A stretch of 64,000 nt of DNA from Candidatus Acetothermia bacterium. Its GTDB lineage: Bacteria > Bipolaricaulota > Bipolaricaulia > RBG-16-55-9 > DRXL01. Under the pieces are notes generated by a model. The model did no database searches. It was not told the origin of the DNA and saw nothing but the letters and a program-made list of their open reading frames with translations. Below are positions 22,936-47,216 of the stretch, one piece after another. Numbering within the stretch: the stretch's first letter is position 1; every line of letters starts with the position of its first letter. A program made the translations under genes and the position numbers. The stretch spans positions 4,115-68,114 of the forward strand of contig JACOSB010000019.1 in the NCBI GenBank assembly GCA_016179105.1, written 5' to 3'.

Positions 22936-23280
22936 TTAACTCCCTCGATAGGTCGAATAGCCGAATGGACTCAAGAGCAACGGCACGTGATAGTGCTGCG
23001 ACGCGTCCCGAATTGTGAAGCTCACTGAAACCTCCGGATAAAATCCTTGAATGTTTTGGTTCGAAAAGTAAGCCCCAGTATTGAACCTGATCCTATAATT
23101 TCCCGGTTGCAGTGGGTAGTCTGAGGACAGCAGGTTTCTCAACCGTCCATCTTCATCGGTCACACCCTTCCCGATCATTTTCCAGGCGAACACTGAAGTC
23201 TCGAATTCAAGAAAGACAGGCACGCCGCGCGCCGGGCAGCCCTGGGTAACATCCAAAACGTGAGTCGTAATTTTGCTCAT
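22936..23280 (-). CDS. uraH: 5-hydroxyisourate hydrolase (transthyretin-like)
   Basis: 114 aa; C-terminal YRGS tetrapeptide; HVLD...G.PA..V motif. Confidence 0.85.
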   Translation of the reverse strand: MSKITTHVLDVTQGCPARGVPVFLEFETSVFAWKMIGKGVTDEDGRLRNLLSSDYPLQPGNYRIRFNTGAYFSNQNIQGFYPEVSVSFTIRDASQHYHVPLLLSPFGYSTYRGS

Positions 23281-23281
23281 C

Positions 23282-24810: not shown

Positions 24811-24822
24811 CAGTTCTCTCCC

Positions 24823-26172
24823 TCATTGTGTCAGCAGTTGCCCCAGCGGCTCCGCTGAAAATTTTCCATCATCGTACACCTTTTGTCCTCGCACATATAC
24901 AGCTTCGACTATCCCGTTTAATGTCCGTCCATTATACGGCGTCAGTTTGTGTTTGTGCTGGATAATCGATGGCTCAACACGAAATGTCGCTTCGGGATTC
25001 CAAATGACTAAATCCGCATCGTAGCCAACCTTCAATGCTCCTTTGCGATGATGCAAGCCAGCGAGCTGTGCGGGTTTGTGTGACATCCACTCAGCTAGGT
25101 GGCGAAGCTCGAGGTCGCGCTCCTTCATCTCTGTCCACATCACGGGCAAGCCAAATTGCAACGAAGCAATACCGCCCCAAGCTTTCATAAAATTGCCCGA
25201 CTCACACAACTTCAGATGTGGCGGGCAGGGCGAATGATCAGAGACAACCATATCGATCACGCCCTCGCGCAGTGCTTCCCAGAGCTTTTCACGGTTCTCG
25301 CGCTCGCGCACCGGAGGGCAGCATTTGAATTCGGTCGCGCCATCGGCCACGTCTTCGGCTGAAAATGTTAGATAGTGTGGGCAAGTCTCTACTGTAATAG
25401 GCACGCCATCGGCTCTGGCTTCGCGCAACATTGGCAAAGCCTCTGACGACGAAAGATGCACGATGTGAACGCGCGCGCCGGTCTCGCGACTCAGGCGGAT
25501 CATCATCGCAATCGCTTCGTTTTCGGCCGCGTGCGGGCGTGATTTAAGAAATGTGTGATACAGTTTCGGATCGCTGTTAGCAATCTCCTTGGCTGCGCGC
25601 TCAATCGATCCGGGGACTTCCGCATGAACGAGTAGTACAGTGTTGAGTTCTGCCAATATGGGCATAGCATTTCGAAGATCGGATTCGCTGACATTGGGGA
25701 ATTCATTGACGCCGGAGTGAACGAGAAAACATTTGAAGCCGCGCACGCCCGTTTCCATCAATGGCCGAAGTTCTCTCAGATTGCCCGGCACGACTCCTCC
25801 CCAGAACGCGACATCCACCCAGCATTGCCCGCGCGCAGCGGCAAGTTTTTCCCGAAATCCCGACAGCGCTGTTGTCGGTGGAATGCTGTTGAGCGGCATA
25901 TCTACCAATGTTGTAACGCCTCCAGCAGCAGCGGCGCGCGTTGCAGATGAAAAACCTTCCCAGTCGGTTCGCCCCGGCTCGTTAACGTGAACGTGCGTAT
26001 CCACCAGTCCGGGCATCACGACGGAATCGCTTACATCTATCACTTTGGCATCCGAAGAGACTGCACCGCGCTCAGTGATGGCAGCGATCAATCCATCACG
26101 AATGTGAATCGAGGCCGGCCTAATCTTCTCAGGCGTAACGACTCTTTTGCTAGTGATAATCAGATCAGCCAT
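24823..26172 (-). CDS. allB: Allantoinase (cyclic amidohydrolase family)
   Basis: ORF to 26253; likely start MADLIITS. DTHVHVNEPGRTDWEGF metal-binding motif. Placed in a ureide cluster. Confidence 0.75.
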   Translation of the reverse strand: MADLIITSKRVVTPEKIRPASIHIRDGLIAAITERGAVSSDAKVIDVSDSVVMPGLVDTHVHVNEPGRTDWEGFSSATRAAAAGGVTTLVDMPLNSIPPTTALSGFREKLAAARGQCWVDVAFWGGVVPGNLRELRPLMETGVRGFKCFLVHSGVNEFPNVSESDLRNAMPILAELNTVLLVHAEVPGSIERAAKEIANSDPKLYHTFLKSRPHAAENEAIAMMIRLSRETGARVHIVHLSSSEALPMLREARADGVPITVETCPHYLTFSAEDVADGATEFKCCPPVRERENREKLWEALREGVIDMVVSDHSPCPPHLKLCESGNFMKAWGGIASLQFGLPVMWTEMKERDLELRHLAEWMSHKPAQLAGLHHRKGALKVGYDADLVIWNPEATFRVEPSIIQHKHKLTPYNGRTLNGIVEAVYVRGQKVYDDGKFSAEPLGQLLTQ

Positions 26173-26176
26173 ACCA

Positions 26177-26785
26177 TCATTCAACTTCAGCGCCGTACAC
26201 TCTCGCCACTTGAATGGCTTGGGCAATATCCAAACGTACACCTTTAAGGTCAAAGCTCCTGAAATCTACCCCATCGATGATAGCGCCCCGTAGATCGGCT
26301 CCCTTGAGAACCGCTTGAGCGAGATTGGCTTTGGTTAGATCCGCCTCTCGAAAGTCAGCGTTCTCTAAATCGCACCCATAGAGATCGGCTTCGGTGAATC
26401 GCACGCGCTGGAGGTCGAGACCTTTCAGGCTGCTATGTCTTAGGTTCGTGTACGACCAATCTCCAGTCACGATGGATAAAGCTGTTAAATCTGCTTGAAG
26501 AAAAGAAGATCCGGTCATCTTGCAACTGATAAATTGAGCACTGAACAGTCTCGCTCCCGCGAATGTGCAATTCGTGAACGCTGAGCCTTTGTGATTGGAG
26601 GAGTTTAATTTAGCATTGCTGAAATCGCACTCGGAGAACAAACATCGATGAGTGGTCAGCTCGCTCATGGGAGTCCGTCGGAAACTGCATCGCACAAACC
26701 GACAACCTTCAAAATGTTTTCGATTGAAATCAGCACCCTCAAATTTCTCATCTATGAATTCTTTATTAGCCCATTCGTCTGACAA
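26177..26785 (-). CDS. Pentapeptide-repeat protein (Qnr/MfpA-like size, 202 aa)
   Basis: Continuous A(D/N)LxG pentapeptide repeats (ADLTKANLAQAVLKGADLRGAIIDG...). Confidence 0.8.
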   Translation of the reverse strand: MSDEWANKEFIDEKFEGADFNRKHFEGCRFVRCSFRRTPMSELTTHRCLFSECDFSNAKLNSSNHKGSAFTNCTFAGARLFSAQFISCKMTGSSFLQADLTALSIVTGDWSYTNLRHSSLKGLDLQRVRFTEADLYGCDLENADFREADLTKANLAQAVLKGADLRGAIIDGVDFRSFDLKGVRLDIAQAIQVARVYGAEVE

Positions 26786-28810: not shown

Positions 28811-29652
28811 CGGAAATAGAGTAAGATGGAGACATGATCTGGGAAAAACTAGATGCGGATGCGCAGTTGTTTGCTTATGCCACCGGCTGTACTCGCCAGC
28901 GCTTTGACCGACTGGTCAGAGAAGTGGAAGCGGAGCTCGCAGCTCAGCCTTTACGGGGCCGGCCTTGCACCTGGCCTCTGTGGCAACCAATCCTCATCAG
29001 TTTGGTCTACCTGCGCTCGGCTCAACCGATGCAATGGATCGAGTTGACCTTCGGCGTCGACGACAGCTCGGTCTCACGCACTGTGCGCCGGATGCTCAAG
29101 TTGTTCGAGCGAGTGGGGTTCGTGTCGCCTGCACCTCTGCCGGGCTGGTCCCCGGCCCAGATCGTAGATACGACCCTCATCCCCAGCGGACGCCCCCACG
29201 GATGGGAAGCGCAGAAGCCGCTGTACAGCGCCAAACATAAACGACACGGTTACAAAGTGCAGATTCTCGAAGGCGTGGAAGGACGCTGGAGCGCCGTGAC
29301 TAAACCGAGGGTTGCTGCCACCGCCGATGCGACGATCTGGGCGCTAAATCCCAAACCAGTGCAGCCCTGCTATGGAGATCGAGCTTACCCCAAAGCGGAA
29401 GTAATTCGGCCGGCCAAACGCCATGAACCCGGACAAGATCGAGAGCGCGACCGGGTGATCTCGCGCTTGCGGGTGAAAGTGGAGCATCGGATCAAGCATT
29501 TGAAGGACTTTAAGCTGCTACGCGGGTGGCGGTTGAAGCGGCCGGTAGGCACGATCTGGGGAGCCCTCTGTTTGATCTCGGCGCTGTGGAATGGCTAAAG
29601 CCATGTGGGGCGAAGGCCTACGCTCTTCCCAGTCTCAATTACGAGATGGCTC
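28811..29652 (+). mobile_element. IS5-family insertion sequence (842 bp) with 11-bp terminal inverted repeats GAGCCATCTCG and a TA target duplication
   Basis: Left end ...gaaaTA|gagccatctcgg. Right end cgagatggctc|TAatac. Confidence 0.8.
28834..29598 (+). CDS. IS5-family DDE transposase (DDE_Tnp_1)
   Basis: DTTLIPSG...YSAKHKRHGYKVQI...YGDRAY...RVKVEHRIKHLKDFKLL motifs; 254 aa. Confidence 0.8.
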   Translation: MIWEKLDADAQLFAYATGCTRQRFDRLVREVEAELAAQPLRGRPCTWPLWQPILISLVYLRSAQPMQWIELTFGVDDSSVSRTVRRMLKLFERVGFVSPAPLPGWSPAQIVDTTLIPSGRPHGWEAQKPLYSAKHKRHGYKVQILEGVEGRWSAVTKPRVAATADATIWALNPKPVQPCYGDRAYPKAEVIRPAKRHEPGQDRERDRVISRLRVKVEHRIKHLKDFKLLRGWRLKRPVGTIWGALCLISALWNG

Positions 29653-32071: not shown

Positions 32072-32221
32072 ACTTCTCCCTCCATAGCTTAGCTTTTTTC
32101 GGATAATGTCTAACAGATGTTGAACTGCGTCCGGTCAATCTTTGCCAATTCCTTCATGGGCGTGATATTATACGCCGTCACCCAGAGCAGAGCCATTGCA
32201 CTCGACTCACGGAGGCATCTT

Positions 32222-33664
32222 ATGAAAACTTCTCTTTCTCACGGCTCAGTACAAAAAATTGCAGCACGCTTGCAGCAAGCCAATACGGCCTTCACGCAAC
32301 GCTATCCGGGAGAATCCGGCCGCCGCCAGCCCGTTCACACCGTCTACGGCGGCGCGCATCTTTTCAAGTCAGGAACCGCTCAACGCCTCGGCGCAATGGC
32401 ACGCCAGGCATTTGCTGAATACGCTCCCAATTTCGTGACCTTGGCAAAAGCCGTGGACCTTCCTGGCTCTGAAACTTTGCCAGATAAACCCTCACAGATT
32501 TCAGAGCTGGCTACGCGCCTGAGCAAAACACCTGACACTGTGAAACGCGAAAACTATCCGGCTTGGTTTGCCCATGCTGTTTACTCCCGTGTTCAAGAAA
32601 AATTGAATCGCGAACCAGTCGAGGATTTTCGCATTGATTTTGAAGACGGCTACGGCAATCGCCCTGATACCGAAGAAGATGGTCACGCCGTCGCCGCAGC
32701 CAGTGAAGTTGCTAAGGGAATGAGAGAAAATACGCTGCCTCCTTTTATCGGCATCCGCATCAAGCCGTTTACTGAAGAGCTGAAAGCGCGCAGCATCCGC
32801 ACACTCGATCTCTTCGTGACTGCGCTTCTCGAACAGACTAGCGGCCATCTGCCAGCGAACTTTGTCATCACGTTGCCGAAAGTCGTGATGCCCGAACAGG
32901 TCGCAGCGCTCGCTGATCTGTTTGACTTATTCGAGAAGCAAACAGGTCTTGCACGAGACACGCTTCGGATGGAGATGATGATTGAGACGACACAAGCGAT
33001 CATCAATGAGCGTGGAGAGACGAACTTGCCACGTCTACTCGATGCCGCACGGGGCCGCTGCGTTGCCGCGCATTTCGGCACGTACGATTACACAGCCAGC
33101 TATAGCATCACTGCCGCGTATCAACACATGATGCATCCCGCCTGCGATTTCGCCAAGCATATGATGAAGGTCGCGTTTGCGGGAACGGGCCTTTGGCTTT
33201 CTGATGGCGCGACGAACATCATGCCCATCGCGCCGCATCGCGCAAGCGAGGGCAAGCCACTGACGCCGGAGCAAATTTCTGCGAACCGCGCGGTCGTTCA
33301 TCAAGCCTGGAAGCTGCATTACGATCACATTCGGCATTCGCTCATCAATGCGTTCTACCAAGGCTGGGACTTGCATCCGGCGCAGCTACCGACGCGCTAT
33401 ACTGCTGTCTACTCGTTCTTTCTCGAAAATCTGGATGCCGCCTCTGAGCGCTTGCGAAACTTTGTGGCTAAAGCGGCGCAAGCGACGTTAGTGGGAGATG
33501 TCTTCGATGATGCCGCCACAGGGCAAGGACTGCTCAACTACTTCTTGCGCGCGATCAACTGTGGGGCCATTACAGAAGAAGAAGCCGGCGCACTGACCAG
33601 TTTGACCTTGGAAGAATTGCGCTCACGATCGTTCGTGAGCATTCTGAAGAAGAGACAGAAGTGA
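32222..33664 (+). CDS. Uncharacterised TIM-barrel-like protein (malate synthase / HpcH-HpaI aldolase-like motifs)
   Basis: ORF 32117..33664; start MKTSLSHG after GGAGG. Contains IDFEDGYG and ITLPKVVMPEQV motifs. Immediately upstream of the 8-oxoguanine deaminase. Confidence 0.35.
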   Translation: MKTSLSHGSVQKIAARLQQANTAFTQRYPGESGRRQPVHTVYGGAHLFKSGTAQRLGAMARQAFAEYAPNFVTLAKAVDLPGSETLPDKPSQISELATRLSKTPDTVKRENYPAWFAHAVYSRVQEKLNREPVEDFRIDFEDGYGNRPDTEEDGHAVAAASEVAKGMRENTLPPFIGIRIKPFTEELKARSIRTLDLFVTALLEQTSGHLPANFVITLPKVVMPEQVAALADLFDLFEKQTGLARDTLRMEMMIETTQAIINERGETNLPRLLDAARGRCVAAHFGTYDYTASYSITAAYQHMMHPACDFAKHMMKVAFAGTGLWLSDGATNIMPIAPHRASEGKPLTPEQISANRAVVHQAWKLHYDHIRHSLINAFYQGWDLHPAQLPTRYTAVYSFFLENLDAASERLRNFVAKAAQATLVGDVFDDAATGQGLLNYFLRAINCGAITEEEAGALTSLTLEELRSRSFVSILKKRQK

Positions 33665-33665
33665 T

Positions 33666-35054
33666 ATGGGACAGAAGACATCTCAACAAACAAAGCAAGA
33701 AAAGACCCTTCTCATCAAAGATTTGGATGCTCTGGTCGATCTCTCGACCCTCGAAGGGTATGTTCGTAAAGCGAGCATTCTCATCCGCGGCAATCGCATC
33801 GCGAAAGTGTATGCGAGCGAACTGCCTCATGTGAAAGCAGATCAGACCATCAATGGTCGAGGCAAGATCGCCATCCCCGGCTTGATCAACACGCACCATC
33901 ACTTGTATCAAACACTAACACGCGCTTATGCACCCGCGATGAACTCCGGGCTCTTTGATTGGCTCATAAAACTTTATCCCGTCTGGGCCAAGATGGACGA
34001 AGACGCGATCTACTGGGCGACGCTCGCAGGCATGGCTGAGTTGATGCTCTCCGGCTGTACGTTGACCACAGATCATCATTATGTTTTTTCTGGCTCACTC
34101 CAGCGTTGCATCGACATTCAGATCGAAGCAGCTCGTGAGATCGGGATTCGCTTTCACCCCTGTCGTGGGAGCATGAGCCTGGGGAAGAGCAAGGGCGGGC
34201 TGCCTCCGGACGTAATCACACAACCCGATGACGAGATTTTGAAAGACTCCGAACGATTGATAAAAGAATATCACGATGCTTTATTTGGAGCGATGACGCG
34301 TATCGCATTGGCTCCTTGCTCGCCCTTTAGCGTGACGAGAGAGCTGATGCGAGAGACAGCGACGCTCGCAAAAAAACATAGCGTTCGTCTACATACGCAT
34401 CTGGCTGAAACGCAAGATGAAGAGAAATTTTGCGAAGAAAAATTTGGTTGTAGCCCACTCGAATACTTGGAAGAACTGAAGTGGAGCGGGCCGAACACCT
34501 GGCTCGCCCACGGAATCTATTTTAACTCTGAAGAAATTCAACGGATGAGCCGAGCGGGCATGAGCGTCGCGCACTGCCCAACCTCCAATATGCGCCTGGG
34601 TTCCGGCGTTGCGAAAGTTTTAGAGATGCGTCGAAAGGGAGTGAATGTCGGCCTAGCCGTCGACGGAAGTGCCTCGAATGATTCTTCGAATATGCTCGTT
34701 GAAGTCAAGCAAGCGCTCTTACTGCAACGGGTTGTACATGGGCCGAGCGCGCTCTTGGCGAAAGAAGCGATAGAGCTGGCAACGATTGGGAGCGCAAAGT
34801 GTTTGGGCCGGGAAGACGTTGGCACGCTTGCCGAAAGCATGGCTGCCGACATAGCTCTGTTTGATCTGGAAGAGCTGGGGTACTCCGGAGGATGCGATCC
34901 GCTGGGCACACTCGTGCTCTGCGGGCCGACCTCTGTGCATACTCTGATTGTGAATGGAAAAGTTGTCATCAAGAATCATGAGCTGCTAACATTCGACGTT
35001 GAAAGAATTGTGCGCAAGCACCGAGCCGCTTCCGCAAAATTGTTTCGCGCTTGA
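33666..35054 (+). CDS. 8-oxoguanine deaminase-like amidohydrolase (guanine/8-oxoguanine -> xanthine/urate)
   Basis: INTHHHLYQTL, HLAET, HCPTSN and AVDGSASND metal-binding motifs of the cytosine/guanine deaminase amidohydrolase clade. Confidence 0.7.
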   Translation: MGQKTSQQTKQEKTLLIKDLDALVDLSTLEGYVRKASILIRGNRIAKVYASELPHVKADQTINGRGKIAIPGLINTHHHLYQTLTRAYAPAMNSGLFDWLIKLYPVWAKMDEDAIYWATLAGMAELMLSGCTLTTDHHYVFSGSLQRCIDIQIEAAREIGIRFHPCRGSMSLGKSKGGLPPDVITQPDDEILKDSERLIKEYHDALFGAMTRIALAPCSPFSVTRELMRETATLAKKHSVRLHTHLAETQDEEKFCEEKFGCSPLEYLEELKWSGPNTWLAHGIYFNSEEIQRMSRAGMSVAHCPTSNMRLGSGVAKVLEMRRKGVNVGLAVDGSASNDSSNMLVEVKQALLLQRVVHGPSALLAKEAIELATIGSAKCLGREDVGTLAESMAADIALFDLEELGYSGGCDPLGTLVLCGPTSVHTLIVNGKVVIKNHELLTFDVERIVRKHRAASAKLFRA

Positions 35055-39684: not shown

Positions 39685-41184
39685 ATGTTTAGTAGCTCCA
39701 AGTCACTCCGGATCGTCCTGACGTTTTTGATTTTCGCGAGTGCGTTAGTCTATGGAGTTGTGGCTTTCGGGCAAAACTCCGCCACTCTAGTCGTCGATTC
39801 CGATCCTAATCAATCCCAAGTCTTTGTGGATGGCATGTCCAAGGGCGTCACGCCTGTCTCGGTGACCGTGGCCGCCGGGAACCATCAAGTCATCGTACGC
39901 CATAGCGGCTGCCGCGACTTTATCATGGTGCTCTTCTTGCAAGCGGGCGAGAAGAGAACGATTTCAGCTCGGCTCAGCTGTACCTCCAATAACAACGCGC
40001 TCTTGCTCCTCGATTCTAACCCGGATGGAGCGCAGATCTTCTTAGATAGTCAATTCCGCGGGAACACGCCGAACGTCTTAAACGTTGCGGCGGGCGCGCA
40101 CAGCCTCTTATTGCGCCGCGCGAACTGCCAAGACTTTACGATGTCGCTCACCTTGAATGCAGGTGAGCAGCGCCGCGTCCAAGCGACTTTAGCCTGCACC
40201 AATGTGCAGCCGCCCGGCTTCCCGCCGATGCCCCCGACGCAACCCCAGCAGAGCCCGGTCGCACAAGTGGCCGCCCAAGGCCAAGCCATTCTGCCGAGCG
40301 ACCCGCGCTTTGGCGCTTTGTCCGCCCAGTTCTTAGCTTCCATGAATATGGACGAACAAGCGTTGGCCGCTCGATTGCAAGCAGCGTATTCGGCTTCGGA
40401 ATCACACGAGGGAGCTCAGGCTCAATCCACAGGAGGAGTTAATTTCTCCATCCTGCCCGAGGCCCAGAGCGTTGACCTCAATCAAGTTGTACTCCAGCAG
40501 GGTCAAACCATGCTCTTGGGAACAGTGAGTCTCTCCTCGAACGGCACGATTGGCGGCGTCCCGCTCCCCGCTGGCAATTACGGCGTCGCGGTCATGAGCT
40601 CGGGAGCCGCAGGGCTCATGACGGACAGCACCTCCTCCGGGACGTTCGGGGGATTCGTGATCGTGATTATCGGCTTCACAGGGCACATTAATTTCTTCAT
40701 CTTCTTCCCGACCGTAACGTTCTTCCCATTCTTCTTCCCGTTCTTTAGCCCGATCTTCGTCTTCCAGATCTTCATCCAGTTTATCTTCCCGTTCCCGTTC
40801 TTCTTCCCCTTTTTCCCTTTCCCGTTCCCGGGTCCAGGCCCGGTCTTTGCGTGTCCGCCGCTGCCCGTCGTGACGCCCTTCACGGTCACGGTCGGAGGGC
40901 CGCCAGACACGATCTTGACGACCGCGGCGTTCACGATCAGCGAGACGGGGTTTGGCGGAGGTGGAGGGGCACTCGTGACAGTGCAATCGTATGGTCCAGC
41001 CCTGAGCGTTCAGGCAATGGGGAACTTCTCCTCGCGCTTTGTGACCGTCTTCCCCGGCGGGAGCGTGACGTTTGACGTCATCTCCACCAGCTTCGTCATG
41101 CGGGTAGACGGTGGAGGCGTGACGGGCTGCGTGAACGCCACCCGAAGCCCGACCACGATCAGCGGACAAGCTTCGCATAACTAG
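39685..41184 (+). CDS. Secreted protein paralog P1: signal peptide + 2 PEGA domains + conserved Q/A-rich module + Phe/Pro-rich hydrophobic low-complexity segment + Cys-containing C-terminal domain
   Basis: PEGA motifs (VFVDGMSKGVTPVSV; IFLDSQFRGNTPNVL). Segment FFIFFPTVTFFPFFFPFFSPIFVFQIFIQFIFPFPFFFPFFPFPFP. C-terminus ...DGGGVTGCVNAT...ISGQASHN. Confidence 0.7.
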   Translation: MFSSSKSLRIVLTFLIFASALVYGVVAFGQNSATLVVDSDPNQSQVFVDGMSKGVTPVSVTVAAGNHQVIVRHSGCRDFIMVLFLQAGEKRTISARLSCTSNNNALLLLDSNPDGAQIFLDSQFRGNTPNVLNVAAGAHSLLLRRANCQDFTMSLTLNAGEQRRVQATLACTNVQPPGFPPMPPTQPQQSPVAQVAAQGQAILPSDPRFGALSAQFLASMNMDEQALAARLQAAYSASESHEGAQAQSTGGVNFSILPEAQSVDLNQVVLQQGQTMLLGTVSLSSNGTIGGVPLPAGNYGVAVMSSGAAGLMTDSTSSGTFGGFVIVIIGFTGHINFFIFFPTVTFFPFFFPFFSPIFVFQIFIQFIFPFPFFFPFFPFPFPGPGPVFACPPLPVVTPFTVTVGGPPDTILTTAAFTISETGFGGGGGALVTVQSYGPALSVQAMGNFSSRFVTVFPGGSVTFDVISTSFVMRVDGGGVTGCVNATRSPTTISGQASHN

Positions 41185-41213
41185 CGATAGAGCAAGAGAC
41201 AGAATCACATCCT

Positions 41214-41241
41214 GTAGGGATGCAGCATGCTGCATCCCTAC
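41214..41241. repeat. REP-like palindrome gtagggatgcaGCATGCtgcatccctac followed by a T-run (likely terminator of P1)
   Basis: Perfect inverted repeat + gttttt. Confidence 0.75.
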
Positions 41242-41389
41242 GTTTTTAGGGGAATATGCAATCCCCGATCTGATCGGGTAGAATTCGATCGTAAGGGAAG
41301 AAATCTGAAACTTTTTTCGCGGACCGAGGGTATATTACGGCGATCGTGAGACCTACAGATTCCAAACAATCCTGAGGAGGGATTAACCT

Positions 41390-43099
41390 ATGTTCAGTGG
41401 TTTCCGCCCGTTACGGGCGATTCTGGCGCTACTCTTGTTAGTTGGGGTGACTGTCTCCTTTGCCGGAGCACAGAATGCCCCCTTGGGCATCGTCGTCCAA
41501 CCGTCCGACCTCGCTGTCACCATCGCGACAGATAAGAATGCTTATCAAATTGGAGAAAACGTACGCATCAACGGAACAGTCAACCAAAATGCATTTCTCT
41601 ACATCGTCGATGTCGACCCGGCCAATAGCGTCACCCTGATCTTCCCGAATGCCTTCTCGACGAACAATCAGATTCCCGCAGGCCCTTATGCTCTTCCGGA
41701 CAAGCCTGGCTACGACCTGAGAGTAACTCCTCCAGCGGGTACAGAGTTTGAGTACGCCATCGCTTCCACAGAACCTCTCAATCTTCAAGCCGTCTTCAGT
41801 CAGGCCAACCCGTTCGCGTCGCTCGGCAACCCGCAACAAGCTCAAGGGCGAATTCAAGGCGCGATTCAAGGGCTTGTGCCCACAGCAAAATCTGCCGTCT
41901 CGTTCACCAGCTTCCAGGTCGGCGGTCAACAGCCCCCGATCATGGGTACAGCGTTCTTGTTGATTGAGTCGAACCCGAGCGGCGCTCAAGTTTTCTTGAA
42001 CGGCCAAGCGCGTGGTGCAACACCGGCCTCTTTCTTACTAGCCGCCGGGGCTTATCAGATCTTGCTCCGTGCGCCTAATTGTCAAGATTTCTTCGCGAAT
42101 ATCGTGCTCGCTCCGGGTGAGCAGCGTCGTCTCTCGGCGACCTTGGTCTGCGCGCAGCAGCCGCCGATCAACCCGCAGGACCCGACGGCCCAGATCGCCG
42201 CCCAAGCCCAAACGATCACGCCGAGCGATCCGCGCTTTGCCGCCTTAGCGGTTCAGTTCTACGCCAGCTTAGGACAGAACCAGCAGGGCATTGCGGCGCG
42301 CCTGCAGGCCGCTCTGGGTACAGCACCTCAGGGCATCGTGCCGCAGCCGACGCAAGGCGCGCAGTTCTCGATCTTCCCCGAAATGCAGAATATCAACCTG
42401 AACCAGGCTGTGCTCCAACAGGGCCAGACTTTACTCTTAGGAACGATTACGCTTCCGACCAACACCACAGTCGGCGGGCTGCCGCTTAGCGCGGGCACCT
42501 ATGGCGTGGGCGTGATGGCGAGCACCGCCGGAGGATTCACGCTACACAGAGCCTCGGCTGGAGCTCAATTCGGCGGCTTTGTGATCGTGTTGATTAACTT
42601 CAACACGGGAAGCGTAGTGGCTTTCTTCTTCTTCCCGACGGTCAGTTTCTTCCCGATCTTCTTCCCGGTCTTTAGCCCGATCTTCGTCTTCCAGATCATC
42701 ATTCAGATTACGATCGTGGTGCCGGGATTCCCGTTCCCCTTCCCGTTCCCCTTCCCGACAGTCGGCTGTCCCGCGTTGCCCTTTGTCACTCCGATCAACG
42801 TTCCGATCGGTGGTCCCAATGACACGCTGGTGGCGACGACGGCCTTCATCGTCCAAGAAGTGGGCCTCAGCTTGAGCGGGGTGTTGATCAGAATCCAGTC
42901 GCTCGGACCAGGCTTGAGCTTCCAACTCGTGACGGGCTCGCTCTTGCGCTTCGGTTCGATCTTCCCCGCGTCGAGTGGGTTGATTGCCCTGCCGGTCGGG
43001 TCCTCTTTCGTCTTGAGGGTCGACGGCGGCGGCAAGACGGGCTGCGTGAACGCGACGACCAACTTCTTCACGATCACGGGCACGGCGAGCAATAACTAA
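41390..43099 (+). CDS. Secreted protein paralog P2: signal peptide + DUF4384-like domain + PEGA + conserved module + Phe/Pro-rich segment + Cys C-terminal domain
   Basis: Shares the module ITPSDPRFAALAVQFYASLG...LNQAVLQQGQTLLLGT...GGFVIVLINF...FFFFPTVSFFPIFFPVFSPIFVFQIIIQ...GCPALP...DGGGKTGCVNAT with P1 and P3. Confidence 0.7.
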   Translation: MFSGFRPLRAILALLLLVGVTVSFAGAQNAPLGIVVQPSDLAVTIATDKNAYQIGENVRINGTVNQNAFLYIVDVDPANSVTLIFPNAFSTNNQIPAGPYALPDKPGYDLRVTPPAGTEFEYAIASTEPLNLQAVFSQANPFASLGNPQQAQGRIQGAIQGLVPTAKSAVSFTSFQVGGQQPPIMGTAFLLIESNPSGAQVFLNGQARGATPASFLLAAGAYQILLRAPNCQDFFANIVLAPGEQRRLSATLVCAQQPPINPQDPTAQIAAQAQTITPSDPRFAALAVQFYASLGQNQQGIAARLQAALGTAPQGIVPQPTQGAQFSIFPEMQNINLNQAVLQQGQTLLLGTITLPTNTTVGGLPLSAGTYGVGVMASTAGGFTLHRASAGAQFGGFVIVLINFNTGSVVAFFFFPTVSFFPIFFPVFSPIFVFQIIIQITIVVPGFPFPFPFPFPTVGCPALPFVTPINVPIGGPNDTLVATTAFIVQEVGLSLSGVLIRIQSLGPGLSFQLVTGSLLRFGSIFPASSGLIALPVGSSFVLRVDGGGKTGCVNATTNFFTITGTASNN

Positions 43100-43129
43100 C
43101 GCATAGCTCAACCATTAAGCAAATCCGAA

Positions 43130-43173
43130 CGAAGGGCAGTTCTCTACCGTGAGAGCTGTCCTTCTTTTTGTTT
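43130..43173 (+). terminator. Rho-independent terminator after P2
   Basis: gaagggcag...ctgtccttc stem followed by tttttgttt. Confidence 0.55.
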
Positions 43174-43179
43174 CCGTAC

Positions 43180-43209
43180 TTGACAAAAATTTTGTCTACG
43201 CTTTATAAT
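43180..43209 (+). promoter_or_regulatory. Near-consensus sigma70 promoter TTGACA-N18-TATAAT
   Basis: cttgacaaaaattttgtctacgctttataat; no protein-coding ORF follows. Confidence 0.55.
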
Positions 43210-43215
43210 TAACGT

Positions 43216-43545
43216 GGAGGTCGAAAAAGACCAGTCAATTCTTTTGAGTACGAGATGTCCGTGCAAGGGCAAACCTGTCGCAAGGCAGGGGCGCAAAACC
43301 ACGGATCTGTCCGACAGACCGCCGGGTTGCCACGGGACTCCTGGATTCCTAAGGAGTGTGAGGGCTCAGGCGGTTCAATTTTTTCACTCAACTGATAAAA
43401 CGGAGCAAAGCGCGAAGGGACTGCACGCAAAGATTAGCGAAACCCCGCGGGGAAGAGGGATAGAGAGGGAAAGTGGGGTGCAGGCAAGAATCGAGACTCC
43501 CAGAGGCTGTGGAGTATTCTCCTGCGCCCCAAACTATATTCATTG
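43216..43545 (+). ncRNA. Candidate non-coding RNA or long structured greA leader (about 330 nt)
   Basis: The strong promoter at 43180-43209 is followed by GC-rich, stop-codon-dense sequence with no plausible ORF. greA has its own TTGCAC-N17-TACAAT promoter further downstream. Confidence 0.3.
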
Positions 43546-43548
43546 CGC

Positions 43549-43577
43549 TTGCACGGTTTTCGGGTCTCTTCTACAAT
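43549..43577 (+). promoter_or_regulatory. Sigma70-like promoter TTGCAC-N17-TACAAT for greA
   Basis: cttgcacggttttcgggtctcttctacaat lies 36 nt upstream of the greA ATG with AGGAGG RBS. Confidence 0.5.
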
Positions 43578-43613
43578 GGGGTTGAAAACATTCATAACTC
43601 TCAGGAGGATTCG

Positions 43614-44081
43614 ATGAGCGAGCGCATTCCGATGACGGCGGAAGGGTATGAACAGATCCGCGAAGATCTCGCCCGATTGGAGTCCGAGCGGCCTAAAATC
43701 GCCGCGATGATCGCCAAGGCCCGCGCTTACGGCGACCTCAAAGAAAACGCTGAGTATCATTCAGCCAAAGAAAAACAAGGTTTTTTAGAGGCCAGCATTC
43801 GTGATCTAGAAGCCAAGCTAGCTCGTGCTTTCGTCATCGACGAAAAAACGTCCACGTCCGGGCAAGTTGGCTATGGCTCGCTCGTCACGATCGAAGACTC
43901 CAGCGCCGGGGCGCGTTTTCAGTACAAACTCGTCGGCCCCGCCGAAGCCGACCCCGAGGCTGACTTGATCTCGACGGCTTCCCCCGTCGGCAAGGCACTC
44001 TTGGGATGTAAACGGGGCGAGACCGTGCAGGTCCAGACGCCGGGAGGCCTGCGTTCCTACACCATCGTCGACGTGCAGTAG
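43614..44081 (+). CDS. greA: Transcription elongation factor GreA
   Basis: MSERIPMTAEGYEQIREDLARLE...AKARAYGDLKENAEYH is a canonical GreA N-terminal coiled coil. Confidence 0.9.
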   Translation: MSERIPMTAEGYEQIREDLARLESERPKIAAMIAKARAYGDLKENAEYHSAKEKQGFLEASIRDLEAKLARAFVIDEKTSTSGQVGYGSLVTIEDSSAGARFQYKLVGPAEADPEADLISTASPVGKALLGCKRGETVQVQTPGGLRSYTIVDVQ

Positions 44082-44122
44082 TTGGCACTTTTCTCAATTT
44101 TCTGACAAAAGGCCCGACAAAG

Positions 44123-44180
44123 CGTAGGGGCGAATCTTGTATTTGTCCTTTGGAAGGGGTGATCACAAGGATCGCCCCTA
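44123..44180. repeat. REP-like family variant: GTAGGGGCGAATCTTG...CAAGGATCGCCCCTAT with 26-nt loop
   Basis: Arms share the GTAGGGGCG/CGCCCCTA termini with the other copies. Confidence 0.55.
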
Positions 44181-44301
44181 TAGTTTGATCGACGTTCTTA
44201 ATGAGCCACTCCCCCTGAAACTTTTCCATACGTTCATGGGTATATCTTTTCAAGCGGCGTTTTTCTAAACTATTGAACTAGAGTTTTTAGGGGAGGAATG
44301 C

Positions 44302-45288
44302 ATGTTGCGAAAAATCGGGATCATCACTCTCGTCGGAATACTCTTCGGGTTTGCTTCAGGGCCTCTTCTGAGCCACGCTCAATCAACGCTCTCAGTGCAG
44401 ACCGTCGCGCAGCAATCTCAGACGATCTTGCCGGGCGACCCACTTTTTGCGTCCTACGAGACCCGCTTCTATCAGACGCTCGGAGTTTCTTCGACAGAAC
44501 TGGCACACAAGCTCCAGGCGATGACGACCGAATCGGCCGCGCCGCAGTCAACCCAAGCCGGCCAAGCGATGACGGTCTCGATCTCACCCGAATACAAAAA
44601 CACAGACTTGAAAACCGAAGTCGTCGCCAATGGCAAGACGCTCTTAGTAGGCACCGTCGAGCTGACGCGTGCGGGGGCTCTTGGCGGAGTGGCGCTACCG
44701 GCGGGCAAGTACGGCGTCGCCGCCATGAAGGGGTCGTTCGTCATTGTGCTGATCAACATCTCGAACGGCAATGTCGTTGCGTTTATTGTGATTTCAGACC
44801 CCTTAATTCTCGGATTTGGTTTCTTGCCCATTTTCTTCCCCTTTGAGATTTTTTTCCAAGTCGCGTTCGTGATCCCATTCCCGTTCCTCTTTCCACCGTT
44901 CTTCTTCCCGCCATTTTTTGTGACATTCGCGGGCTGTCCAGTGATGGGCAGGGCCGTGGCCGTCGATGTCACCGTCGGCAGTGGAGCGACGATCATCACT
45001 TCGCCGAGTTCTGGGCAGCCGACGTTAGCCATAAAAGACGGCGGTCGGTTGGGGGTTTTAACCGTTGAATCGTTGGAGCCCGCCAAGCGACCTTTGCGTT
45101 TTCAATTGCTGAGTTTAGGACGAATCGGCTTCGGCTTTGTCGGCGAAGGAGCGGCCGGGCACGCCAATGTGCCCGTGTTTGATACCCCCTTCGTATTGGT
45201 CGCAAGCGATGATCAAGGCCATTCGGCGTGCTTGAGCGCATTCGTGCTCTTTCCGGGAATCATCTCCGGGTCGGCTACCAGTAACTGA
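44302..45288 (+). CDS. Secreted protein paralog P3 (minimal form: signal peptide + conserved module + Phe/Pro-rich segment + Cys C-terminal domain)
   Basis: QSQTILPGDPLFASYETRFYQTLG...GKTLLVGTVELT...FVIVLINI...FLPIFFPFEIFFQVAFVIPFPFLFPPFFFPPFFVTFAGCP...ACLSAF...ISGSATSN. Confidence 0.65.
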   Translation: MLRKIGIITLVGILFGFASGPLLSHAQSTLSVQTVAQQSQTILPGDPLFASYETRFYQTLGVSSTELAHKLQAMTTESAAPQSTQAGQAMTVSISPEYKNTDLKTEVVANGKTLLVGTVELTRAGALGGVALPAGKYGVAAMKGSFVIVLINISNGNVVAFIVISDPLILGFGFLPIFFPFEIFFQVAFVIPFPFLFPPFFFPPFFVTFAGCPVMGRAVAVDVTVGSGATIITSPSSGQPTLAIKDGGRLGVLTVESLEPAKRPLRFQLLSLGRIGFGFVGEGAAGHANVPVFDTPFVLVASDDQGHSACLSAFVLFPGIISGSATSN

Positions 45289-45607
45289 AAATCGTAGTAG
45301 TCACAGAGAGCAAGAAAGAGGATAGAGATGAAAAGTAAGATGAGCCGGTGGGAACGGACAGGGGCGCAAAAGCGCTTATTCACGTGTAATACTGTTTTGC
45401 CTTCTGAATGTCCGAAGGCTGGCGTTACCAGATCAGCATTTTTCGCCCATCTATCACGACATGATCAATGCAAAACAGTATAATTCACCCGATTTCCACA
45501 GTTTTTCCACTTAGGCTCACATATACTTTGGACGTGGACGGAAAGGCTCGGAACGTTTGTAGCTTAAAAATTGACAACCCAAATCACAACTGAGGAGGCG
45601 GTACATA

Positions 45608-46282
45608 ATGTTCAGTCTCAAGACATGGGCAGTATGGACAGCGTTGGCCGTGTTGATGGTCGGAGCCGTTGGGCAGGTGGCGTTGGCACAAAATGGACAG
45701 TCGCAGCAGAATTCTCCTGTTTTCCCCGAAGATTATCTCTACAGAGCGGCCACGCAAATCTTGTCAGAGGTCAAGGTTATCGCCCCTGGAAGCAGTGAGT
45801 TCCAGGCGCTGGTCGATAAATTCTCTCAAGAGGAGCGCGATACGCAAATTACACGAATGCTTCCGCTCGATCGCAAGAACGTTTTGATGAACCCAAGTAC
45901 TCCGGTGTCGTTTGTCTTCTTTAAGCCGGCAGTCAAGCTCTATCTGCCGGATACGGCCGTCCTTCGTTCCAGCCGGATCCAGGGGATTATCCGCGGCAAC
46001 GGCGCGTTGATTGCCCCTCTGGGCTTGATCAAGATCAATGATAAGCTCTTCCCAGCCACTTTGCAGGGTGAGCCCTATACTGCGGGTGGTAAGATGTATG
46101 TGGCTCTGTATGACGACAGCAACAAGGTCGTCGGCATGATCCAGTTCCCGCAAGAAGTTACGGTCGCTGCGGCGCTGGAAGTCTTGCAGGCTCATGGCCC
46201 GGAGGATAACTTCTCCCCGTGGTTCCAGATCTACTTTACGGATGCTGTCATGATGAACATCGTGGCCTTCTTGCAGAACTAA
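45608..46282 (+). CDS. Secreted hypothetical protein (224 aa)
   Basis: Signal peptide MFSLKTWAVWTALAVLMVGAVGQVALA; GAGG RBS; no family recognised. Confidence 0.55.
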   Translation: MFSLKTWAVWTALAVLMVGAVGQVALAQNGQSQQNSPVFPEDYLYRAATQILSEVKVIAPGSSEFQALVDKFSQEERDTQITRMLPLDRKNVLMNPSTPVSFVFFKPAVKLYLPDTAVLRSSRIQGIIRGNGALIAPLGLIKINDKLFPATLQGEPYTAGGKMYVALYDDSNKVVGMIQFPQEVTVAAALEVLQAHGPEDNFSPWFQIYFTDAVMMNIVAFLQN

Positions 46283-46306: not shown

Positions 46307-46345
46307 ACAGCGAAGCACCGGGGTTAACTCCTCGGTGCTTCTTCT
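46307..46345 (+). terminator. Rho-independent terminator
   Basis: gaagcaccgggg...cggtgcttc + ttctttttg. Confidence 0.6.
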
Positions 46346-46397: not shown

Positions 46398-46460
46398 ACG
46401 TGTTCTCTTTTGCGAAATTTTCAGCTATAATAGACCCAATTGCACGAGAGTGGGGAGTTT

Positions 46461-47216
46461 ATGACCATTTTGCCGATTCTCTTGCTGGGGTTCGCGCCGG
46501 GCGCTTTTTGGCTCTGGTACTTTTATCATCGCGACAAGCTCGAACCAGAGCCCCAATCCTTGGTCATTCGGACTTTCTTCTTTGGTTTGCTGATCGCGAT
46601 CCCCGCCGCGATCGTAGAAGTAGCTTTCTCTTGGCTCTTCGCGGCGTTGGGGCAGGTGGTCTTGATTGCCGTCATCGCTCCCGTAGTCGAAGAATATGCC
46701 AAATACCTCTGCGTGCGAAGGACGATCTACCGTGACGCCGAGTTTGACGAGCCGATGGATGGCATCGTATACGCCGCGGCGGCCGCTTTAGGATTTGCCT
46801 CGATCGAGAATGTTGGCTACTTACTCTTCGCCATCCGTGAGGGGGGCTGGACAGGGCTAGAGATCGCCTTTATTCTTCGCGCCCTGCTTTCGGTGCCCGG
46901 ACACGTCCTCTTCTCCAGCATCTGGGGAGGAGCCTTGGGCCGGGCTAAATTTATGCAAGACGCGGCTTCTGCCAATCGACTTATCCGTAACGGACTCTTC
47001 GGAGCCATGGCGCTGCACGGGCTCTTCAATTTCTTAGCCAGCTTCGAGTTAACGGGGAACGAACTTCTGGCCGTGCTCGGAGCCATCGGGCTCTTGATTC
47101 TGGTGGTCTTGGCCTGGGTTCGCATCCATCGGCGTATGAGCGAAGCGTTGCTCGACTCACCCTACAACCCGAGCAACATGACCCGACAAGAACCGTCCTC
47201 GCCCAGTCATCAATGA
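46461..47216 (+). CDS. prsW: PrsW-family intramembrane metalloprotease
   Basis: VVEEYAKY, ASIENVGY and HGLFNF motifs (EExxK / FxxxE-N / H) and multiple TM helices. Confidence 0.75.
   Translation: MTILPILLLGFAPGAFWLWYFYHRDKLEPEPQSLVIRTFFFGLLIAIPAAIVEVAFSWLFAALGQVVLIAVIAPVVEEYAKYLCVRRTIYRDAEFDEPMDGIVYAAAAALGFASIENVGYLLFAIREGGWTGLEIAFILRALLSVPGHVLFSSIWGGALGRAKFMQDAASANRLIRNGLFGAMALHGLFNFLASFELTGNELLAVLGAIGLLILVVLAWVRIHRRMSEALLDSPYNPSNMTRQEPSSPSHQ

What the first reader, a model, noticed from the sequence alone, without database searches (positions are those of the whole stretch)
39685..45288. Three paralogous secreted proteins around greA share a module ending in an extreme Phe/Pro-rich hydrophobic low-complexity segment
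P1 (39685-41184), P2 (41390-43099) and P3 (44302-45288) have different N-terminal decorations: 2xPEGA, DUF4384+PEGA, or none. All three share a conserved module of about 300 aa with four parts. First, (I/L)(T/L)P(S/G)DP(R/L)F...F(Y/L)(A/Q)(S/T)LG...(A/H)(A/K)(R/K)LQA. Second, Q-rich spacer...LNQxVLQQGQT(L/M)LLGT(I/V)(T/S)L...GG(V/L)PL(P/S)AG(N/T/K)YGV(A/G)VM...G(G/S)FVIV(I/L)I(N/G). Third, a 45-60-aa stretch that is almost purely F/P/I/V (for example FFIFFPTVTFFPFFFPFFSPIFVFQIFIQFIFPFPFFFPFFPFPFP). Fourth, a conserved Cys (GCP / ACPP) and a C-terminal domain with a second conserved Cys (TGCVNAT / SACLSAF) ending ...SG.A(S/T).N. The F/P stretch is conserved at the DNA level between paralogs (tttagcccgatcttcgtcttccagatc is identical in P1 and P2), so it is under selection rather than a slippage artefact. 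I do not recognise this module as a described domain. It could be a membrane-inserting or amyloid-like surface anchor.
Basis: seen in the sequence. Interest (0 to 1): 0.75.

Follow-up and report, generated by a model that had tools for sequence, protein, structure and literature searches.

The report
Rare secreted proteins with phenylalanine-proline-rich segment
Three neighbouring genes encode exported proteins from a very rare, unnamed family; their odd phenylalanine/proline-rich stretch is real and under selection, but it looks like the hydrophobic core of a new domain plus a greasy proline-rich linker, and its function is still unknown.

Summary
P1 (39685-41184), P2 (41390-43099) and P3 (44302-45288) are intact paralogs with Sec-type signal peptides. 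P1 carries 2xPEGA, P2 carries DUF4384+PEGA, and P3 carries no added domain. All three share a ~300-aa module with no match in Pfam, NCBIfam, PHROGs, PADLOC or PDB sequences.

The family is tiny: 19 clusters among 1.84 billion representative proteins, all from metagenomes.

The F/P stretch is translated and under purifying selection. Orthologs show no indels, and against a 97%-identical ortholog there are 6 synonymous versus 2 conservative changes.

It is not a single low-complexity unit:
- The last 11-28 residues are an X-Pro repeat linker. It is aromatic here (FP) and in some relatives (WP, YP), but plainly polar (PAPTPP) in others.
- An Ig-like domain with two conserved Cys follows.

My best reading is a conserved envelope attachment or assembly base that carries variable beta-sandwich heads. 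A canonical TM helix and an amyloid are disfavoured. Function remains inferred.

A c-di-GMP-I-GGC riboswitch lies upstream of greA-P3.

The parts
39685..41184 (+). P1 CDS, 499 aa: signal peptide (res 1-29, ...VAFG|QN), 2x PEGA (about res 33-97 and 105-170), shared module res 189-499
40693..40854 (+). P1 uncharged hydrophobic segment, res 337-390 (25 F, 12 P of 54), ending at conserved Cys390. Its X-Pro linker PFPFFFPFFPFPFPGPGPVFA lies at 40789-40851
41213..41242 (+). Intrinsic-terminator-like hairpin plus T-run after P1
41390..43099 (+). P2 CDS, 569 aa: signal peptide (...SFAGA|QN), DUF4384 (res 52-129), PEGA (res 190-253), shared module res 261-569
42620..42769 (+). P2 uncharged hydrophobic segment, res 411-460 (16 F, 10 P of 50), ending at the conserved Cys. 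Its linker PGFPFPFPFPFPTVG lies at 42722-42766
43131..43164 (+). Intrinsic-terminator-like hairpin plus T-run after P2
43180..43209 (+). Perfect sigma-70-type promoter consensus (TTGACA-18-TATAAT) that would drive the riboswitch leader and greA(-P3)
43259..43335 (+). c-di-GMP-I-GGC riboswitch aptamer (RF03167), 63 bits against a gathering score of 59
   Evidence: also in L091 2854-2930
43317..43386 (+). Candidate expression platform: a strong hairpin whose 5' arm overlaps the 3' half of the aptamer, followed by UUCAAUUUUUU (a terminator; it implies an ON switch)
   Evidence: MFE fold; sequence
43614..44081 (+). greA (155 aa), 80% identical to GreA_GreB-annotated orthologs in L001/L002
44302..45288 (+). 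P3 CDS, 328 aa, the bare module: signal peptide res 1-27 (...SHA|QS), N-terminal alpha/beta domain res 28-190, linker res 191-211, Ig-like domain res 212-328
44779..44871 (+). P3 res 160-190: hydrophobic beta-strand (AFIVIS), short helix, and amphipathic helix FPFEIFFQVAFV with the conserved polar E182/Q186. Predicted as part of the N-domain (pLDDT ~90). Most conserved region among the orthologs
44872..44934 (+). P3 res 191-211: aromatic-Pro linker IPFPFLFPPFFFPPFFVTFAG (pLDDT <50). Fixed length in 8 orthologs
44935..45285 (+). P3 res 212-328: Ig-like beta-sandwich with conserved Cys212 and Cys310 and the conserved C-terminal ...ATSN-COOH
45608..46282 (+). Conserved downstream secreted protein (224 aa, no family). 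It is syntenic in all trio loci. It has its own promoter-like site (45456-45484) and terminator (46312-46341). Whether it belongs to the system is uncertain

Best explanation
What it is. P1, P2 and P3 are paralogs of a very rare, unannotated family of Sec-exported, modular cell-envelope proteins. The shared ~300-aa module has three parts:
1. An alpha/beta domain with no detectable relative. Its C-terminal beta-strand and ~14-residue amphipathic helix are almost entirely hydrophobic and form its buried core. The helix has a conserved Gln/Glu/Asp and a second polar or small residue at i+4.
2. An 11-28-residue X-Pro repeat linker.
3. An Ig-like beta-sandwich, probably stapled by a disulfide between two conserved Cys, which ends in a conserved (H/S/N/T)-Asn-COOH.

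The 'F/P low-complexity segment' is parts (1, end) and (2) read together. In this lineage both have drifted to an extreme Phe content. Relatives fill the same positions with L/V/I, Trp/Tyr-Pro or ordinary polar Pro-rich sequence.

How it most likely works (inferred, not shown). The conserved C-terminal module is the envelope-proximal attachment or assembly base. The variable N-terminal beta-sandwich heads (PEGA, DUF4384, or none) project from it. The stiff aromatic-Pro linker sits against a hydrophobic phase, either the membrane interface or a homo-oligomer interface, and holds the protein at the cell surface without spanning the bilayer.
For: Shown:
- Intact frames and signal-peptide-like N-termini.
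- PEGA and DUF4384 occur only in the N-terminal extensions.
- The module has no hit in Pfam, NCBIfam, PHROGs, PADLOC or PDB sequences.
- There are 19 clusters in 1.84e9 representatives. The same architecture is present in distant members.
- AF2 models: the C-domain is a beta-sandwich at pLDDT ~85. The N-domain including P3 res 158-190 has mean pLDDT 85.4 and pTM 0.80, and the linker is below 50.
- Polar residues sit at helix positions 182 (20 of 22 Q/E/D/R) and 186. Pro flanks the helix at columns 176/177 and 192.
- Purifying selection and no indels in orthologs.
- Linker comparison: 3-12 Pro per linker. The Wimley-White interfacial sum runs from +8.2 to -7.6 kcal/mol.

Inferred:
- A disulfide between the two nearly invariant Cys, and hence an extracytoplasmic location.
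- The 'conserved base, variable head' logic, from the fact that decorations are added only at the N-terminus.
Against: - There is no experimental or expression data.
- The AF2 alignments are shallow (10-16 sequences).
- The most divergent members (P0021, P0025) have polar linkers, so linker hydrophobicity cannot be essential to the family's core function.
- No conserved gene neighbours exist across distant members that would indicate a pathway.
- The organism's envelope type (monoderm or diderm) is unknown. The nearest GTDB genome has only 69% GcvPB identity.
- A 43-59-residue segment with almost no charge in every member is also what a membrane-embedded element would look like.
Confidence: 0.45

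Rival explanations
1. Plain soluble periplasmic or secreted two-domain protein. The hydrophobic strand and helix are simply the domain core. The aromatic-Pro linker is packed against the two domains or is a neutral rigid spacer. Its Phe richness is compositional drift with no anchoring role.
For: AF2 places res 158-190 inside the N-domain. Distant members have ordinary polar Pro-rich linkers. Linker length and sequence vary between paralogs.
Against: Within P3 orthologs the linker has fixed length, 66% identity and mostly synonymous change. That is more constraint than a neutral spacer needs. Independent lineages use W-Pro and Y-Pro repeats (P0015, P0019), residues typical of interfacial binding. 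An exposed run of 9-10 Phe would be very aggregation-prone if it were not bound to something.
Confidence: 0.25
2. Membrane-embedded anchor or latent insertion element. The uncharged 43-59-residue segment would form a TM helix, a re-entrant (oleosin-like) hairpin, or a buried hydrophobic element that inserts on a trigger, as in pore-forming colicins. This is essentially the first reader's idea.
For: Nearly charge-free segment in all members with mean Kyte-Doolittle 0.7-2.3. Some relatives (P0014, P0016) have TM-like stretches of 22-24 residues. A conserved mid-helix Gln/Glu could mediate helix association in a membrane. Envelope-stress genes lie nearby: PrsW in the trio loci and a LiaF-like gene next to P0021.
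Against: The helix between the conserved flanking prolines is only ~14 residues. The best internal 19-residue Hessa sums are +1 to +3 kcal/mol, and they fall on the predicted beta-hairpin, not the helix. The segment is 17-23% Pro in P1-P3. There is no positive-inside flank. A single span after a cleaved signal peptide would put the Cys-pair Ig-like domain and the Pro-rich linker in the cytoplasm. AF2 packs the segment in the domain.
Confidence: 0.2
3. Amyloid-like or hydrophobin-like self-assembling coat protein, in which the F-rich stretch forms cross-beta fibres or a hydrophobic surface layer.
For: Very hydrophobic, aromatic-rich sequence. Strands that are fully hydrophobic (FVIVLIN, VVAFIVI). 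Three paralogs are present, as with some matrix systems.
Against: Pro is incompatible with cross-beta, and a Pro occurs every 2-5 residues through most of the segment. There are no imperfect Q/N-rich strand repeats like curli. The hydrophobic strands are confidently predicted as a hairpin within a globular domain. TRF finds only short 6-12-nt codon repeats.
Confidence: 0.05
4. Artefact: misassembly, replication-slippage low complexity, or a wrong reading frame (long antisense ORFs overlap the stretch).
For: Antisense ORFs of 277, 189 and 204 aa overlap the segments. Short TTCCCG/TTCTTCCCGATC repeats are present.
Against: The same genes and segments recur in independent assemblies (L001, L002, L090, L091, L092) with conserved frame and length and an excess of synonymous change in the + frame. 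The antisense ORFs follow trivially from TTC/CCG codon runs, which have no stop codon on the reverse strand.
Confidence: 0.01

Closest known systems
X-Pro dipeptide-repeat rigid linkers of envelope proteins, e.g. TonB (Glu-Pro)n/(Lys-Pro)n and OmpA-type (Ala-Pro)n hinges (from my own knowledge)
   Same: A run of alternating X-Pro, 11-28 residues long, joins two extracytoplasmic domains. It is predicted to be non-globular (pLDDT <50). The divergent members P0021 and P0025 carry exactly this ordinary type (PAPPTPVPPPAP).
   Different: Here X is Phe (Trp/Tyr in P0015 and P0019) instead of charged or small residues. This makes the linker strongly hydrophobic (Wimley-White sum down to -7.6 kcal/mol). 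I know of no described bacterial (Phe-Pro)n linker, and the literature search found none.
Trp/Pro-rich interfacial peptides (indolicidin ILPWKWPWWPWRR, tritrpticin) (own knowledge)
   Same: Aromatic-Pro repeats. P0015 even contains WPWWPW. Such sequences bind membrane interfaces in extended, PPII-like conformations.
   Different: Those are short cationic antimicrobial peptides. Here the repeat is uncharged and lies inside a 330-570-aa protein. No homology is implied.
Oleosin central hydrophobic hairpin with proline knot (own knowledge)
   Same: A very long (about 50-70 aa) uncharged segment containing prolines, flanked by polar domains on the same side.
   Different: Oleosins are eukaryotic, cytosolic-side proteins targeted to lipid droplets, with no sequence similarity. 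Here AF2 places half of the segment inside a globular domain.
PEGA- and DUF4384-containing bacterial and archaeal cell-surface proteins (PF08308, PF14326; PEGA described in PMC2447325)
   Same: P1 and P2 carry these beta-sandwich domains behind a signal peptide. This suggests a cell-surface location.
   Different: The shared module itself is neither PEGA nor DUF4384. P3 and most distant members lack both domains.
Generic Ig-like/FN3 beta-sandwich domains
   Different: There is no sequence-family membership. Its distinguishing features are the conserved Cys pair and the conserved terminal (H/S/N)-Asn-COOH.

Membership tests
PEGA domain (PF08308) | Pfam HMM score above the gathering threshold (20.8 bits) | tested here: met
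   P1 scores 78.5 bits with 2 stretches. P2 scores 42 bits. P3 has none. The match covers the N-terminal decorations only, not the shared module.
DUF4384 (PF14326) | Pfam HMM score above the gathering threshold (27 bits) | tested here: met
   P2 res 52-129 scores 71.2 bits. The domain is also present in P0009, P0011, P0012 and P0019.
Any curated protein family covering the shared module (Pfam-A, NCBIfam, PHROGs, PADLOC, PDB sequences) | A significant profile match to module residues | tested here: not met
   P3 matches no family in any library. Among the 24 family members only PEGA and DUF4384 recur. A PDB profile search gives 0 hits at E<=10.
Canonical single-span or hairpin transmembrane anchor | A helix of >=19 apolar residues with favourable insertion energy, few helix-breaking Pro, and positive-inside flanks | tested here: not met
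   The helix bounded by conserved Pro is ~14 residues. Crude Hessa-scale sums for 19-residue windows are +1 to +3 kcal/mol. No basic flank is present. The test used a simple scale, not a trained predictor.
C-terminal sorting signals (LPXTG/sortase, PEP-CTERM/exosortase, GlyGly-CTERM) | A motif followed by a C-terminal TM helix and a basic tail at the very end of the protein | tested here: not met
   The hydrophobic segment is followed by a folded domain of ~115 aa. The protein ends ...ATSN...ASHN or ...ASNN. There is no NCBIfam hit.
T9SS C-terminal domain (Por_Secre_tail) | A sequence match to the CTD models, and a Bacteroidota-type T9SS host | tested here: not met
Bacterial lipoprotein (lipobox) | [LVI][ASTVI][GAS]C directly after an N-terminal signal-peptide h-region | tested here: not met
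   The N-terminal signal peptides end in A/G|Q with no Cys. The internal Cys is preceded by lipobox-like FAGC, ISGC, LSGC or IAGC in P3 orthologs. Across the family, however, position -1 is T, V, P, N or R in 6 of 22 members, and the motif is internal.
Functional amyloids (curli CsgA, TasA, chaplins) | Pro-poor imperfect strand repeats, or a match to the known families | tested here: not met
   The segment is 17-23% Pro in P1-P3, and 12-30% in full-length members. There is no family hit.
X-Pro repeat inter-domain linker (functional class, not a homology family) | A tandem X-Pro dipeptide run between two folded domains, predicted non-globular | tested here: met
   There are 3-8 [FWY]-Pro dipeptides and 3-12 Pro in linkers of 11-28 aa. 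pLDDT is below 50 in both models.
c-di-GMP-I-GGC riboswitch (RF03167) - neighbouring element | Covariance-model score above the Rfam gathering score (59 bits) over the full model | tested here: met
   63.0 bits, E 1.8e-13, model positions 1-80. The L091 copy scores 60.6 bits. Ligand specificity cannot be tested here.

The most novel reading that the evidence does not exclude
The module would be a new kind of bacterial envelope anchor. A previously unseen alpha/beta fold would shield a long uncharged strand-helix element. It would be tethered by an aromatic-proline (FP/WP/YP) repeat that embeds in one membrane leaflet or interface. That would make it a prokaryotic, extracytoplasmic analogue of oleosin-type monotopic hairpins, or of the buried insertion hairpins of pore-forming toxins. 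The anchor would carry interchangeable surface heads (PEGA, DUF4384).
Probability: 0.15. Interest if true: 0.7.

Novelty: new variant of a known kind. Interest (0 to 1): 0.45.

Why it matters
If the reading is right, this family defines an uncharacterised domain with no sequence match and no significant fold match in the PDB. It also defines an unusual solution for linking or anchoring surface domains: a conserved, selected (Phe-Pro)n or (Trp/Tyr-Pro)n linker. That would interest people who study envelope architecture in uncultured bacteria, membrane-interface peptides, and the design of rigid hydrophobic linkers.

Its impact is limited by several facts. The family is extremely rare: about 20 clusters at 50% identity (some 30 distinct sequences) among ~15 billion proteins. 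It is confined to uncultured lineages. It has no functional, expression or localisation data and no informative conserved gene partners.

A practical lesson follows. A stretch that looks like low complexity in one genome can be a composite of a structured domain core and a linker, and comparison with distant relatives separates the two.

Tried and rejected
- Profile searches of P1-P3 and the 224-aa neighbour against Pfam, NCBIfam, PHROGs and PADLOC gave nothing for the module. A Pfam scan of 24 family members found only PEGA and DUF4384.
- A PDB sequence-profile search gave 0 hits at E<=10.
- A GTDB genome scan with module patterns found no relative. A JGI metagenome scan found only one locus, identical to L090. 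tblastn against plasmids and phages found no match.
- The taxon is unresolved. The best GcvPB match is 69%, to a MAG labelled 'uncultured Thermotogae bacterium'; the next matches (55-61%) are to Clostridiales/Bacillota, Bipolaricaulota and Chloroflexota, among others. That MAG lacks the family near gcvPB. Accession and sample searches in the literature found nothing.
- Homology of the downstream 224-aa protein to the N-domain is not supported: hhalign probability 13%.
- Ideas considered and dropped:
  - Internal lipobox before the Cys: not family-wide and wrongly placed.
  - T9SS CTD: no sequence match.
  - Intein-like terminal His-Asn: the fold is an Ig-like sandwich and there is no downstream extein.
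  - Thioester Cys-Gln: no supporting motif.
  - Amyloid: too much Pro.
- Literature searches for aromatic-proline or phenylalanine-rich linkers and for PEGA/DUF4384 gave nothing relevant to the module.
- Functional linkage to greA is rejected. The P3 ortholog P0003 sits in a different context (L092), and distant members are solitary.


Full report
**1. Observation**

The three ORFs are present exactly as described: P1 39685-41184 (499 aa), P2 41390-43099 (569 aa) and P3 44302-45288 (328 aa), all on the + strand. Each begins with a Sec-type signal-peptide-like N-terminus ending A/G|Q, which I read directly from the sequence.

Pfam finds two PEGA domains in P1, DUF4384 plus one PEGA in P2, and nothing in P3. 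NCBIfam adds nothing.

The three proteins align over their C-terminal ~300 residues. The richest 50-residue windows contain 24 F + 12 P (P1), 16 F + 11 P (P2) and 18 F + 9 P (P3). The quoted 27-mer occurs exactly twice, at 40744 and 42671, with none expected by chance. There are exactly three copies of the module in the window.

**2. Is the F/P stretch real and selected?**

That argument is weak. In that region 19 of 23 identical residues use the same codon, which strong TTC/CCG bias or gene conversion would also produce.

Orthologs give the proper test:
- Eight P3 orthologs (67-97% identity) keep the segment without a single indel.
- Its structured part (res 160-190) is the most conserved region of the protein, with 76% mean pairwise identity and 52% invariant columns. 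The linker (191-211) is 66% identical.
- Against the closest relative (L091), P3 shows 35 synonymous versus 10 non-synonymous codon differences, P2 87 versus 24, and the available part of P1 45 versus 20.
- Inside the hydrophobic segments the counts are 6/2, 6/2 and 4/3, and the replacements are conservative.

The stretch is therefore translated in this frame and is under purifying selection. The long antisense ORFs over it are a by-product of TTC/CCG codon runs. TRF sees only short 6-12-nt repeats.

**3. How widespread is the family?**

An exhaustive HMM search of 1.84 billion cluster representatives found 19 proteins at E<=1e-3, 14 of them at E<=1e-10. Word-indexed searches of 5.8 billion proteins found 9 and 11. 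All come from metagenomes or MAGs and all are labelled 'hypothetical protein'. No GTDB species representative matched the module patterns. One JGI metagenome locus matched. Nothing matched in plasmids or phages.

The gene order polA-P1-P2-greA-P3-224aa-PrsW-gcvPB recurs in four related lineages: the window, L091, L001/L002 and L090. This order is not obligatory. The P3 ortholog P0003 sits next to GAF, T2SSE-KH and MutL genes (L092). From the same sample comes a dispersed DUF4384-module gene (L089). The distant members are single genes in unrelated contexts. The position around greA is therefore a lineage-specific arrangement and not a functional coupling.

**4. Anatomy from distant relatives**

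All full-length members share the same order of parts:
- a signal peptide;
- optional PEGA or DUF4384 domains;
- a Gln-rich helical start (xIxPGDPxF);
- a beta-rich region (LLGT..LP...GG..LP.G.YGV..M.GSFVIVLI..TG...AF);
- an uncharged segment of 43-59 residues;
- Cys-Pro;
- a ~115-residue domain with a second Cys (GGGKxAC.QA);
- a C-terminus ending (H/S/N/T)-Asn.

The uncharged segment is conserved, but its Phe richness is not. P0014 and P0016 are L/V/I-rich. P0015 has PWPWPWWPWP. P0019 has PYPFPWPYPYPFPWPFP. P0021 and P0025 have ordinary PAPPTPVPPPAP-type sequence.

**5. Structure predictions**

AF2 on the whole P3 module (10 sequences) gave a confident C-terminal beta-sandwich (217-327, pLDDT ~85) but low confidence through 187-210.

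A second model covered residues 28-215 with 16 more diverse sequences. It reached mean pLDDT 85.4 and pTM 0.80. In this model the strand AFIVIS, a short helix, and the helix FPFEIFFQVAFV (P3 179-190) are all part of the N-terminal alpha/beta domain at pLDDT ~90. Only the final ~20 residues (IPFPFLFPPFFFPPFFVTFAG) fall below 50.

In the family alignment this helix is bounded by conserved prolines (columns 176/177 and 192), which makes it about 14 residues long. It carries a polar residue at position 182 in 20 of 22 sequences (Q13, E4, D2, R1), and Gln or a small/polar residue at i+4. That pattern describes an amphipathic helix with a narrow polar stripe.

The 'F/P stretch' is therefore a composite of two things: the hydrophobic core strand and helix of a domain, followed by an X-Pro repeat linker of 11-28 residues.

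**6. Fold comparison**

**7. Membrane or not?**

Arguments for a membrane-embedded element:
- The segment is almost charge-free in every member.
- Some relatives have TM-like stretches of 22-24 residues.

Arguments against a canonical TM helix:
- The helix is only ~14 residues long.
- The segment is 17-23% Pro in P1-P3.
- Crude Hessa-scale sums for the best internal 19-mers are +1 to +3 kcal/mol, and they fall on the predicted beta-hairpin rather than the helix.
- There is no positive-inside flank.
- A single span would place the Cys-pair Ig-like domain and the Pro-rich linker in the cytoplasm.

On the Wimley-White interfacial scale the linkers of P3 (-7.6), P1 (-6.3), P0015 (-5.2) and P0019 (-4.9 kcal/mol) would bind a membrane interface strongly. 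Those of P0021 (+5.4) and P0025 (+8.2) would not. Linker hydrophobicity is therefore a clade-level trait and not a family-wide requirement.

**8. Best explanation and rivals**

I favour an envelope-located modular protein, at about 0.45. In this reading the conserved C-terminal module is the attachment or assembly base, and the variable N-terminal beta-sandwich heads project outward. The aromatic-Pro linker contacts a hydrophobic phase, either a membrane interface or an oligomer interface.

The domain parsing, the selection and the lack of known relatives are shown. Localisation, the disulfide and the anchoring role are inferred.

Rivals:
- Soluble two-domain protein with an incidental greasy linker: 0.25.
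- Membrane-embedded or triggered-insertion element: 0.2.
- Amyloid or hydrophobin-like assembly: 0.05.
- Artefact: 0.01.

**9. Comparison with known systems**

The linker works like the X-Pro rigid spacers of TonB or OmpA, but with aromatic X. The nearest chemical analogues are Trp/Pro-rich interfacial peptides such as indolicidin. The long uncharged, Pro-containing segment recalls the oleosin hairpin. These comparisons rest on my own knowledge and are analogies only. None is a homology claim, and the membership tests for TM anchors, C-terminal sorting signals, T9SS CTDs, lipoproteins and amyloids all failed.

**10. Side finding**

Between P2 and greA, in order, lie:
- a terminator for P2 (43131-43164);
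- a perfect sigma-70 consensus promoter (43180-43209);
- a c-di-GMP-I-GGC variant riboswitch aptamer (43259-43335; 63 bits against a gathering score of 59).

The MFE fold of the leader shows a strong hairpin at about 43317-43375 followed by UUCAAUUUUUU. Its 5' arm overlaps the 3' half of the aptamer. This is the layout of a transcriptional ON switch.

The element is conserved in L091 (93% identical leader) but absent from L001, L002 and L090. It is therefore a recent acquisition upstream of greA, and possibly of P3, since no strong terminator separates greA from P3.

**11. Verdict**

The finding is a real, selected and very rare unannotated protein family with a compositionally extreme segment. 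The 'single low-complexity membrane/amyloid anchor' interpretation is only partly supported. Interest is moderate (0.45). The domain is novel in sequence and possibly in fold, and the linker chemistry is unusual. There is no functional handle and the taxonomic reach is very narrow.

Noticed in passing
window 43180-43386 (+); L091 2854-2930: A c-di-GMP-I-GGC variant riboswitch (RF03167, 63 bits) sits behind a perfect TTGACA-18-TATAAT promoter. It is followed by a terminator hairpin that overlaps the 3' half of the aptamer, giving an ON-switch layout. The element lies upstream of greA(-P3). It is conserved in the 97%-identity relative L091 but absent from the ~70%-identity syntenic loci L001, L002 and L090. 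A transcription elongation factor under a cyclic-dinucleotide-type riboswitch is unusual.
   Followed up: partly
window 45608-46282 (+): A 224-aa signal-peptide protein with no family hit lies immediately downstream of P3 in every trio locus (window, L001, L002, L090, L091). It also ends in ...FLQN or ...FLMN-COOH. hhalign to the module N-domain gives only 13% probability, so no relationship is shown.
   Followed up: partly
window 46440-47216 (+); L084 1709-2515: A PrsW-family intramembrane protease gene lies two genes downstream of P3 in all trio loci. A LiaF-like membrane protein gene sits 32 nt upstream of the distant member P0021. Both are types associated with envelope stress. The link to the family is weak and untested.
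   Followed up: no
L084 1145-1228 (-): A canonical c-di-GMP-I riboswitch (71 bits) lies upstream of a 333-aa putative lipoprotein gene that diverges from the LiaF-like/P0021 gene pair.
   Followed up: no
C-termini of P1 (41179-41181), P2 (43094-43096), P3 (45283-45285) and nearly all family members: The proteins end in a conserved (H/S/N/T)-Asn-COOH directly after the last beta-strand (ASHN, ASNN, ATSN, AAHN, ...). The reason for conserving the terminal Asn is unexplained.
   Followed up: partly
window 40402-41235, 42542-43111, 44472-45086 (- strand): Long antisense ORFs (277, 189, 204 aa; Glu/Arg/Lys/Gly-rich) overlap the F/P segments. They are a by-product of TTC/CCG codon runs. Synonymous-biased divergence supports the + frame.
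   Followed up: yes
window 40690-40800 vs 42617-42727: Synonymous codon identity between P1 and P2 is elevated in the hydrophobic segment (19/23 and 16/21 identical codons, versus about 40% elsewhere). Either codon bias for Phe/Pro or local gene conversion between the paralogs could explain this.
   Followed up: partly
window 20952-26253 (-) and 32117-35054 (+): A cluster that looks like purine or ureide catabolism: uricase (22083-22931), allantoicase (23797-24810), amidohydrolases (24823-26253, 33666-35054) and DUF6986 with a malate-synthase-like barrel (32117-33664). A SIR2_2-domain protein lies beside it (20952-22064).
   Followed up: no
window 1602-4184, 7764-11009, 11158-15660 (+): Large envelope or surface proteins upstream: an 860-aa BNR/ASH-Ig protein, a 1081-aa MMPL transporter, and a 1500-aa protein with 11 PKD repeats plus a LamG domain.
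   Followed up: no
window 28834-29598 (+): A DDE_Tnp_4 transposase ORF (insertion-sequence remnant or copy).
   Followed up: no
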